NCBI RefSeq assembly: GCF_055900595.2
Contig: NZ_CM148325.1
Strand: one strand, 5' to 3'
DNA: 64,000 nucleotides
Position 1 is the first letter of the stretch. Every line of letters begins with the position of its first letter. The position numbers and the translations under genes are program-made. The notes beneath the pieces are model-generated. The model had not been told where the DNA came from, did not search any database, and saw only the letters and a list, made by a program, of their open reading frames with translations. This document shows positions 25,497 to 27,036 of the stretch, piece by piece.

Positions 25497-27036
25497 AAAT
25501 ACGTTCGCAAGTCGGCATGGTGCTTAACCTCGATAAATGTATCGGCTGCCATACCTGTTCGGTGACCTGTAAAAACGTCTGGACCGGACGCGAAGGCATG
25601 GAGTACGCATGGTTTAACAACGTCGAAACCAAACCGGGTATTGGTTATCCGAAAAACTGGGAAGATCAGGAAGAGTGGCAAGGCGGCTGGGTCCGCGATG
25701 TCAACGGTAAGATCCGCCCGCGTCTGGGCAGCAAGATGGGGGTGATTACCAAAATCTTCGCCAACCCGGTGGTGCCGCAGATTGACGATTACTACGAACC
25801 TTTCACCTTCGACTACGAACATTTGCATAGCGCACCGGAAGGCAAACATATCCCTACTGCTCGCCCGCGTTCACTGATTGACGGCAAACGGATGGACAAA
25901 GTGATCTGGGGGCCAAACTGGGAAGAATTGTTGGGCGGTGAGTTCGAAAAACGCGCTCGTGACCGCAACTTTGACGCCATGCAAAAGGAGATGTACGGGC
26001 AGTTTGAAAACACGTTCATGATGTACCTGCCGCGCCTGTGCGAACACTGCCTTAACCCCAGCTGCGTGGCGACCTGCCCAAGCGGCGCGATCTACAAACG
26101 CGAAGAAGACGGCATTGTGCTCATCGACCAGGATAAATGCCGTGGCTGGCGTTTGTGCATTAGCGGTTGTCCGTACAAGAAAATCTACTTCAACTGGAAA
26201 AGCGGTAAGTCAGAAAAATGCATCTTCTGTTACCCACGAATTGAGTCAGGCCAACCCACCGTGTGCTCAGAAACCTGCGTGGGTCGCATCCGGTATCTGG
26301 GCGTGCTGCTTTACGACGCCGACCGCATCGAGGAAGCGGCGAGCACCGAGCGCGAAGTTGACCTCTATGAACGCCAGTGCGAAGTGTTCCTCGATCCGCA
26401 CGATCCCTCTGTGATCGAAGAAGCCCTGAAACAAGGTATTCCACAAAACGTGATTGAAGCTGCCCAGCGTTCGCCAGTCTACAAAATGGCGATGGACTGG
26501 AAACTGGCGTTACCGCTGCACCCTGAATACCGCACCCTGCCGATGGTCTGGTACGTTCCTCCGCTGTCACCGATTCAGTCTTACGCTGATGCGGGTGGCT
26601 TGCCGAAAAGCGAAGGTGTGCTTCCCGCTATCGAAAGCCTACGTATACCGGTGCAATATCTCGCCAATATGTTGAGTGCGGGCGATACCGGTCCGGTGCT
26701 GCGGCACTAAAACGGATGATGGCGATGCGCCACTATATGCGTTCACAAACCGTGGAAGGCGTTACCGATACCCGCGCCATTGACGAAGTAGGGCTGAGCG
26801 TCGCCCAGGTCGAAGAGATGTATCGCTACCTCGCCATTGCCAACTATGAAGACCGTTTTGTCATTCCAACCAGTCATCGGGAAATGGCGGGCGATGCCTT
26901 CGCAGAACGCAATGGCTGCGGTTTTACCTTTGGCGACGGTTGCCACGGCTCGGACAGCAAATTCAACCTGTTCAACAGTAGCCGTATCGATGCCATCAAC
27001 ATCACCGAAGTGCGCGACAAAGCGGAGGGCGAATAA
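25493..27036 (+). pseudogene. narY: nitrate reductase Z beta subunit, reading frame split by an apparent 1-nt deletion
   Basis: ORF 25493..26710 (405 aa, ends ...GPVLRH*) and ORF 26716..27036 (106 aa, MMAMRHYMRSQ...) together cover a complete NarH/NarY-type beta subunit (4 Cys clusters) but lie in different frames. The junction is at CTGCGGCACTAAAACGG, consistent with loss of one G in a G-run. Confidence 0.7.

What the first reader, a model, noticed from the sequence alone, without database searches (positions are those of the whole stretch)
26695..26720. narY reading frame interrupted by an apparent single-G deletion
The NarY beta subunit is split into a 405-aa and a 106-aa ORF in different frames at CTGCGGCACTAAAACGG. 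One missing G in a GGG run would restore ...LRALKRMMAMRHY.... This is either a genuine pseudogenisation of the second nitrate reductase in this strain or a homopolymer sequencing/assembly error.
Basis: seen in the sequence. Interest (0 to 1): 0.5.

Follow-up and report, generated by a model that had tools for sequence, protein, structure and literature searches.

The report
Private one-base frameshift in narY
In this E. coli strain the gene for the iron-sulfur subunit of the back-up nitrate reductase (narY) is broken by loss of a single G; the lesion is seen in only one other public data set and is an ordinary, recent gene inactivation, or less likely a base-calling error.

Summary
narY is split into a 405-aa ORF (25493..26710) and a 106-aa ORF (26716..27036). 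The cause is loss of one G from a CGGGC run, now CGGC at 26702-26705. Putting the G back gives a 514-aa protein identical to NarY of the closest relatives.

The deletion is private:
- None of 5,414 matching E. coli records has it.
- It has no match in the metagenome or species-representative collections.
- All 26 contigs read that carry this strain's exact NarZ allele encode a 514-aa NarY; GGG was confirmed in the five whose DNA was fetched.
- It does recur, 100% identical over 5.3 kb, in a separate assembly made from the raw reads of one SRA run (Logan, SRR27886137). So it is in the reads and is not an assembler or polishing artefact.

The window is not indel-prone. Against a 99.9%-identical complete genome, 63 kb shows four small indels: two in-frame repeat-unit changes, one intergenic base and this one. 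There is no slippery heptamer or long homopolymer, so recoding is not supported.

Best reading: a genuine, very recent loss-of-function frameshift in the nitrate reductase Z beta subunit (about 0.75). A sequencing error is the main rival (about 0.2). The finding is ordinary and of low interest.

The parts
20273..21661 (+). narU, nitrate/nitrite transporter; first gene of the cluster; intact
   Evidence: Annotated narU in NZ_CP098223.1 at L001 13874-15262, offset 6399. An ORF ending at 21661 is present. Called as 462 aa in relatives.
21756..25496 (+). narZ, nitrate reductase Z alpha subunit, 1246 aa; intact; its stop overlaps the narY start (ATGA)
   Evidence: Translation is uninterrupted. The exact protein is on record in 576 blocks of the public collection.
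25493..26710 (+). narY 5' fragment: 405 codons plus a premature TAA (26708-26710). It keeps all Fe-S ligand cysteine groups.
   Evidence: TIGR01660 narH 826.9 bits, profile positions 1-402. Cysteines at 16/19/22/26, 183/186/191/195, 216/222/226 and 243/246/258/262.
26702..26705 (+). Lesion: CGGC where all relatives have CGGGC (one G lost from a 3-G run, codons Arg404-Ala405)
   Evidence: alignment gap at window 26702 / L001 20304. (three Gs in L001 and L019-L023; two Gs in the window and L002).
26705..27036 (+). narY 3' remnant in the -1 frame. The longest ORF starts at ATG 26716 (106 aa). It encodes the conserved C-terminal ~110 residues, and its stop overlaps the narW start.
   Evidence: TIGR01660 profile positions 408-491, 126.8 bits. 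Aligns to NarH 1Q16_B up to residue 506.
27036..27731 (+). narW, molybdenum-cofactor assembly chaperone, 231 aa; intact; start overlaps the normal narY stop (TGATG)
27728..28408 (+). narV, gamma (cytochrome b) subunit, 226 aa; intact

Best explanation
This is a genuine, very recent single-G deletion (GGG to GG, codons 404-405) in narY, the Fe-S beta subunit of the RpoS-dependent nitrate reductase Z (NarZYV, with chaperone NarW). It is private to this strain. Ribosomes read ...Val-Leu-Arg-His and stop at TAA 26708-26710. The product is a 405-aa NarY that keeps all four cysteine clusters but lacks the C-terminal ~110 residues. That tail is highly conserved in the paralog NarH, so the truncated subunit probably cannot form a stable NarZ-NarY-NarV complex, and NRZ activity is lost or severely reduced. 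Early termination 326 nt before narW also removes the normal translational coupling between the narY stop and the narW start, and may lower NarW/NarV expression by polarity. Shown here: the lesion, its uniqueness, its presence in a read-derived independent assembly, and the intactness of the neighbouring genes. Inferred: loss of enzyme function and polarity.
For: The lesion and its exact repair are shown. The two fragments are collinear on TIGR01660 and on NarH 1Q16_B. The same deletion lies inside Logan contig SRR27886137_48, which was assembled directly from SRA reads and is 100% identical to the window over 5,337 nt. The window is not indel-prone: against NZ_CP098223.1, 63 kb contains only four small indels, namely two 6-bp in-frame repeat-unit changes, one intergenic base and this one, and there are none in 22.8 kb of flanks. 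A 3-G run is too short to be a usual homopolymer-error site. Another frameshifted gene in the window (ydcS) is shared with the complete-genome relative, which shows that true pseudogenes occur in this lineage. The rest of the cluster, narU, narZ, narW and narV, is intact.
Against: The deletion is a singleton. It is absent from 5,414 E. coli records, from the metagenome and species-representative collections, and from all 26 contigs read that carry the same NarZ allele. The single supporting run is probably the data set the window was assembled from, so it does not rule out a systematic read error. I could not determine the platform or read depth. There is no secondary decay, which is equally expected for an error. 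Loss of function is inferred, not measured.
Confidence: 0.75

Rival explanations
1. Sequencing or base-calling error. The strain really has GGG and an intact 514-aa narY, and the missing G is a systematic under-call in a short homopolymer that two assemblies made from the same reads both inherit.
For: The site is a homopolymer, although only 3 nt long. The deletion is seen nowhere else. The only corroborating contig comes from a single SRA run that may be the window's own data. The rest of the operon shows no decay.
Against: An independent k-mer assembly of the raw reads passes straight through the site in a 13.7-kb contig, which implies consistent read support. The window has no other homopolymer indel in 63 kb compared with a 99.9%-identical finished genome. 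From general knowledge, 3-base runs are not typical error sites on any current platform, and there is no GATC or CCWGG methylation motif at the site.
Confidence: 0.2
2. Functional split or recoded gene. Full-length NarY would be made by -1 ribosomal frameshifting or transcriptional slippage, or the 405-aa and ~106-aa pieces would both be made (termination-reinitiation at ATG 26716, 5 nt after the stop) and assemble into an active beta subunit.
For: The stop and the next in-frame ATG are only 5 nt apart. All Fe-S ligands lie on the first fragment. The downstream frame is open for 121 nt before the stop.
Against: The 121-nt overlap zone has no X XXY YYZ slippery heptamer in the 0 frame and no homopolymer longer than 4 nt. 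No Rfam element lies at the site. There is no usable Shine-Dalgarno sequence before ATG 26716 (GGA abuts the ATG). The arrangement is not conserved in any relative, and conservation is the hallmark of programmed recoding.
Confidence: 0.03
3. Assembly, scaffolding or polishing artefact at a contig junction. Many public short-read contigs end or start within about 10 nt of this site.
For: Contigs ending ...CTGCGGGCGCT and contigs starting G(G)ATGATGGCG are frequent in public assemblies.
Against: In SRR27886137 the site lies about 1.1 kb inside the contig, not at a junction, and matches the window exactly. The contigs that break nearby carry GGG and belong to other alleles or samples.
Confidence: 0.02

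Closest known systems
E. coli narY (nitrate reductase Z beta subunit) in the narU-narZYWV cluster
   Same: Same locus, gene order and flanks: yddG-ompC...narU-narZ-narY-narW-narV-yddE-nhoA. The repaired protein is identical to the 514-aa NarY of the closest relatives. It matches the TIGR01660 equivalog.
   Different: The reading frame is broken after codon 404 by a 1-nt deletion that is found in no other E. coli record searched.
NarH of nitrate reductase A (PDB 1Q16 chain B)
   Same: Collinear alignment over residues 1-506, E = 1.6e-294. The residues around the lesion (PVLRALKRM) and most of the C-terminal 110 residues are conserved.
   Different: It is a paralog at another locus, the narGHJI operon, which is not in this window. 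NarH is intact in the solved structure, whereas this narY copy would lack everything after residue 404.
Other frameshifted or truncated narY calls in public E. coli assemblies (e.g. STK87129.1, 393 aa, on a 5.4-Mb contig)
   Same: Premature truncation of NarY after a frame change in the C-terminal third (tail ...AIEACVFRCNISPIC instead of ...AIESLRIPVQYL).
   Different: Different site and different strain. Whether that case is real or a long-read error was not examined.
Lineage-level frameshift pseudogene ydcS in the same window
   Same: A single-gene frameshift that splits a conserved gene into two ORFs (148 + 238 aa).
   Different: The ydcS lesion is shared with the finished genome Z0117EC0005, where PGAP flags it 'frameshifted', so it is inherited. 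The narY lesion is private.

Membership tests
NarH/NarY respiratory nitrate reductase beta subunit (NCBIfam TIGR01660) | Score above the curated cut-off (524.05 bits) | tested here: met
   The 405-aa fragment alone scores 826.9 bits, E = 4.5e-249.
NarH/NarY respiratory nitrate reductase beta subunit (NCBIfam TIGR01660) | Whole profile covered by one uninterrupted reading frame | tested here: not met
   Profile positions 1-402 lie in one frame and 408-491 in another. So this is a disrupted member, a pseudogene, and not an intact one.
NarH/NarY respiratory nitrate reductase beta subunit (NCBIfam TIGR01660) | Four cysteine groups that bind the FS1-FS4 clusters | tested here: met
   Cysteines at 16/19/22/26, 183/186/191/195, 216/222/226 and 243/246/258/262, all in the first fragment. 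They align with NarH 1Q16_B. The assignment of these cysteines to clusters rests on my knowledge of NarH.
narZYWV (NRZ) locus as opposed to narGHJI (NRA) | Flanked by narU and narZ upstream and narW, narV and yddE downstream | tested here: met
   Annotation of the 99.9%-identical region of NZ_CP098223.1. PGAP uses the generic names narH and narI for the beta and gamma genes.
Frameshift pseudogene | Frame disrupted relative to intact orthologs, and restored by a single-base change | tested here: met
Frameshift pseudogene | The lesion is present in the organism's DNA (read-level or independent confirmation) | tested here: inconclusive
   It is present in a read-derived Logan contig of SRR27886137. 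However, platform, depth and independence from the window's own data are unknown, and pile-ups cannot be inspected with these tools.
Homopolymer sequencing artefact | The assembly shows many other homopolymer indels relative to near-identical genomes | tested here: not met
   Only two 1-nt indels in 63 kb; the other is a non-homopolymer intergenic insertion.
Homopolymer sequencing artefact | Not reproduced when the reads are assembled independently | tested here: not met
   It is reproduced exactly in the Logan assembly.
Programmed -1 ribosomal frameshift or transcriptional slippage | Slippery heptamer X XXY YYZ, or a long A/T run, in the frame-overlap zone | tested here: not met
   None in 26590-26710; the longest run is AAAA.
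Programmed -1 ribosomal frameshift or transcriptional slippage | Two-frame arrangement conserved among relatives | tested here: not met
   All relatives have a single 514-aa frame.

The most novel reading that the evidence does not exclude
The split narY is not dead. The 405-aa cluster-bearing fragment and a C-terminal fragment reinitiated at ATG 26716 would both be made and assemble into a working two-piece beta subunit. Alternatively, loss of NRZ is an adaptive step in a host-adapted clone rather than a neutral accident.
Probability: 0.04. Interest if true: 0.3.

Novelty: already known. Interest (0 to 1): 0.08.

Why it matters
It matters little beyond this strain. If the deletion is real, the isolate lacks the stationary-phase, RpoS-dependent nitrate reductase Z and must rely on NarGHI and Nap for nitrate respiration. 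From general knowledge, that could slightly affect fitness under nitrate-rich, slow-growth conditions such as the inflamed gut. For annotation, the two ORFs should be merged and flagged as one narY pseudogene, not called as two proteins. For quality control, this is the only frame-breaking private difference in 63 kb, so the assembly appears sound.

Tried and rejected
1. Recurrence of the deletion. A 641-nt and a 101-nt query against 5,426 complete E. coli genomes gave no record with the deletion; the best matches were one gap away. A degenerate 27-mer spanning the deletion found 0 matches in metagenome contigs and genome contigs. The GGG control 28-mer found 2 loci in genome contigs, so that scan works; the control was not run on metagenome contigs.

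2. The 106-aa C-terminal product is on record on hundreds of contigs, which at first suggested that the frameshift was widespread. Inspection showed that these contigs simply start 1-2 nt before that ATG. Contigs carrying a different 405-aa 'partial' NarY (P0004, ending ...VLRA) end 2 nt after codon 405 and have GGG. They are contig-edge truncations, not frameshifts.

3. Programmed recoding. No slippery heptamer or long homopolymer and no Rfam element at the site. Rejected.

4. Literature. Searches for narY + frameshift and for narZYWV + pseudogene returned nothing relevant to E. coli narY inactivation.

5. Shigella-like genome decay, considered because of the pseudogene. One IS200 insertion was identified at 9394-10097, and the window is otherwise collinear and 99.9% identical to ordinary E. 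coli, so this was not pursued.

Full report
**Observation**

The + strand carries a 405-aa ORF at 25493..26710 and a 106-aa ORF at 26716..27036, in different frames. The first translates as NarY from MKIRSQVGMV... to ...GDTGPVLRH followed by a stop. The second frame reads ...AALKRMMAMRHYMRSQ... to the normal C-terminus ...EVRDKAEGE. The quoted string CTGCGGCACTAAAACGG is at 26699-26715. Both ORFs match the NCBIfam equivalog TIGR01660 (nitrate reductase subunit beta) collinearly. The first covers profile positions 1-402 (826.9 bits, cut-off 524). The second covers 408-491.

**The lesion**

The closest complete genome is E. coli Z0117EC0005 (NZ_CP098223.1), 99.9% identical over the aligned region. 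Listing every difference shows a single gap in narY. The reference has CTGC[G]GGCAC and the window has CTGC-GGCAC, so a 3-G run has become 2 Gs at 26703-26704. Re-inserting one G gives a 514-aa protein with 0 amino-acid differences from NarY of three relatives, L001, L019 and L020.

**Context**

The gene sits in the canonical cluster narU (20273..21661), narZ (21756..25496), narY, narW (27036..27731) and narV (27728..28408). The cluster is flanked by ompC and two genes of unknown function upstream, and by yddE and nhoA downstream. This makes it the NRZ operon and not narGHJI. narU, narZ, narW and narV are intact. The narZ stop overlaps the narY start, and the normal narY stop overlaps the narW start.

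**How widespread is the deletion?**

- Among 5,426 complete E. coli genomes, 5,414 records match the region and none has the deletion. With a 101-nt query the best records are 99.0% identical, which is the one gap, and span 102 nt.
- A degenerate 27-mer across the deletion has no match in the JGI metagenome collection or in the 100,044 species-representative genomes. The same pattern with GGG finds two loci, so the scan works.
- The window's exact 1246-aa NarZ allele is on record in 576 blocks of the public gene collection. In all 26 contigs read, the next gene is a 514-aa NarY. The five whose DNA was fetched differ from the window by 1-5 substitutions plus this one gap in 8.7 kb, and all have GGG.
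- The exact truncated 405-aa product is on record on one contig only, Logan assembly SRR27886137_48.

**Real mutation or error?**

The Logan contig is a de Bruijn assembly made directly from the raw reads of an SRA run. It is 100% identical to the window over all 5,337 nt fetched. The deletion lies about 1.1 kb from the contig end. This excludes an assembler, scaffolding or polishing artefact, and it means that the reads of that run consistently lack the G.

The window as a whole is clean. Over about 63 kb aligned to Z0117EC0005 there are about 25 substitutions and only four small indels:
- a 6-bp in-frame repeat-unit loss at 18494;
- a 6-bp in-frame repeat-unit gain at 36958-36963;
- a 1-nt non-homopolymer insertion in an intergenic spacer at 31086;
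- the narY G deletion.

The flanks 1-5773 and 46985-64000 have no indels at all. An indel-prone long-read or flow-chemistry assembly would show many homopolymer differences, and this one shows none other. The site has no GATC or CCWGG methylation motif.

What I cannot exclude is a systematic miscall in that one read set. SRR27886137 is probably the data from which the window was assembled, and I cannot see the platform, depth or pile-ups. I put a genuine mutation at about 0.75 and a read error at about 0.2.

**Recoding?**

Restoring the frame would need a -1 shift. The downstream frame is open from 26590, which gives a 121-nt overlap zone. That zone contains no X XXY YYZ heptamer in frame and no run longer than AAAA. 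Rfam finds nothing at the site. No relative shares the two-frame arrangement. The ATG at 26716 lies 5 nt after the stop but has no properly spaced Shine-Dalgarno sequence. Programmed frameshifting is rejected, and a functional two-piece protein is unlikely (about 0.03).

**Consequence (inferred)**

The 405-aa product keeps all cysteine groups: 16/19/22/26, 183/186/191/195, 216/222/226 and 243/246/258/262. From my knowledge of NarH, these bind the four Fe-S clusters.

The product lacks residues 405-514. This tail aligns without gaps to NarH of the solved NarGHI complex (1Q16_B) and is highly conserved between the paralogs, including PVLRALKRM at the break. That argues it is structurally required. 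The most likely outcome is an unstable or assembly-incompetent beta subunit and loss of NRZ activity. Premature termination 326 nt upstream of narW also abolishes the normal stop-start coupling and may reduce NarW and NarV through polarity. None of this was measured. The lack of any further decay in the operon fits a very recent event.

**Comparison with what is known**

This is E. coli narY, a textbook gene, carrying an ordinary single-base frameshift. Truncated narY calls exist in other assemblies at other sites. One example is a 393-aa product on a 5.4-Mb contig whose tail changes frame. The same window holds another frameshifted gene, ydcS (148 + 238 aa at 55111..56255, minus strand). Its lesion is shared with the finished relative, where PGAP flags it 'frameshifted'. 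That is an inherited pseudogene, in contrast to the private narY lesion. Literature searches found no paper on narY inactivation in E. coli.

**Verdict**

I refine it to: read-supported, strain-private, most likely a genuine recent pseudogenisation of narY. It is ordinary in kind and of low interest (0.08). The two ORFs should be annotated as one narY pseudogene.

Noticed in passing
window 9394-10097: An IS200 copy is inserted between higA/yddM and fdnI and is absent from the 99.9%-identical genome Z0117EC0005. Its transposase ORF at 9496..9954 (-) matches NF033573 transpos_IS200 (E = 2e-42). The IS200 leader sRNA family STnc490 (RF01405) matches at 9964-10087 (-).
   Followed up: partly
window 55111-56255 (-): ydcS, an ABC transporter substrate-binding protein, is split into 148-aa and 238-aa ORFs. 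The same gene is flagged 'frameshifted' in Z0117EC0005, and the window has no indel against that genome there, so this is an inherited lineage-level pseudogene, unlike the private narY lesion.
   Followed up: partly
window 18494 and 36958-36963: Two 6-bp in-frame repeat-unit differences from Z0117EC0005. One ATCCTC unit is lost in a hypothetical protein next to an LRR protein gene. One CGCCTT unit is gained in an RHS-repeat toxin gene. Both look like replication slippage in short tandem repeats.
   Followed up: no
window 31086: A single extra T relative to Z0117EC0005, not in a homopolymer, in the spacer between yddH and a SUKH-4 immunity gene. It is the only other 1-nt indel in the window.
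   Followed up: no
loci L003-L018 (narY, equivalent to window ~26700-26716): Hundreds of public metagenome and Logan contigs end at ...CTGCGGGCGCT or start at G(G)ATGATGGCG, within about 10 nt of the lesion. This creates many 'partial' 405-aa and 106-aa NarY entries that mimic the split. None carries the deletion. The cause was not established; candidates are strain-mixture SNP bubbles or k-mers shared with narH.
   Followed up: partly
window 14100-14158 (-): Selenocysteine insertion sequence (Rfam SECIS_3, 84 bits) inside fdnG, as expected for formate dehydrogenase-N.
   Followed up: no
window ~31200-40500 (-): A type VI secretion Vgr / DcrB-like / RHS toxin cluster with downstream orphan toxin fragments and a SUKH-4 immunity gene, plus a lipoprotein gene flagged frameshifted in the relative (about 40109-40464). 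Two 118-nt internal repeats (about 85% identity) lie at 32184-32301 and 33067-33184.
   Followed up: no
L026, L027: The E. coli-type narY 28-mer with GGG occurs in two human-gut MAGs labelled Citrobacter sp. and uncultured Raoultella sp. These may be mis-binned E. coli contigs.
   Followed up: no
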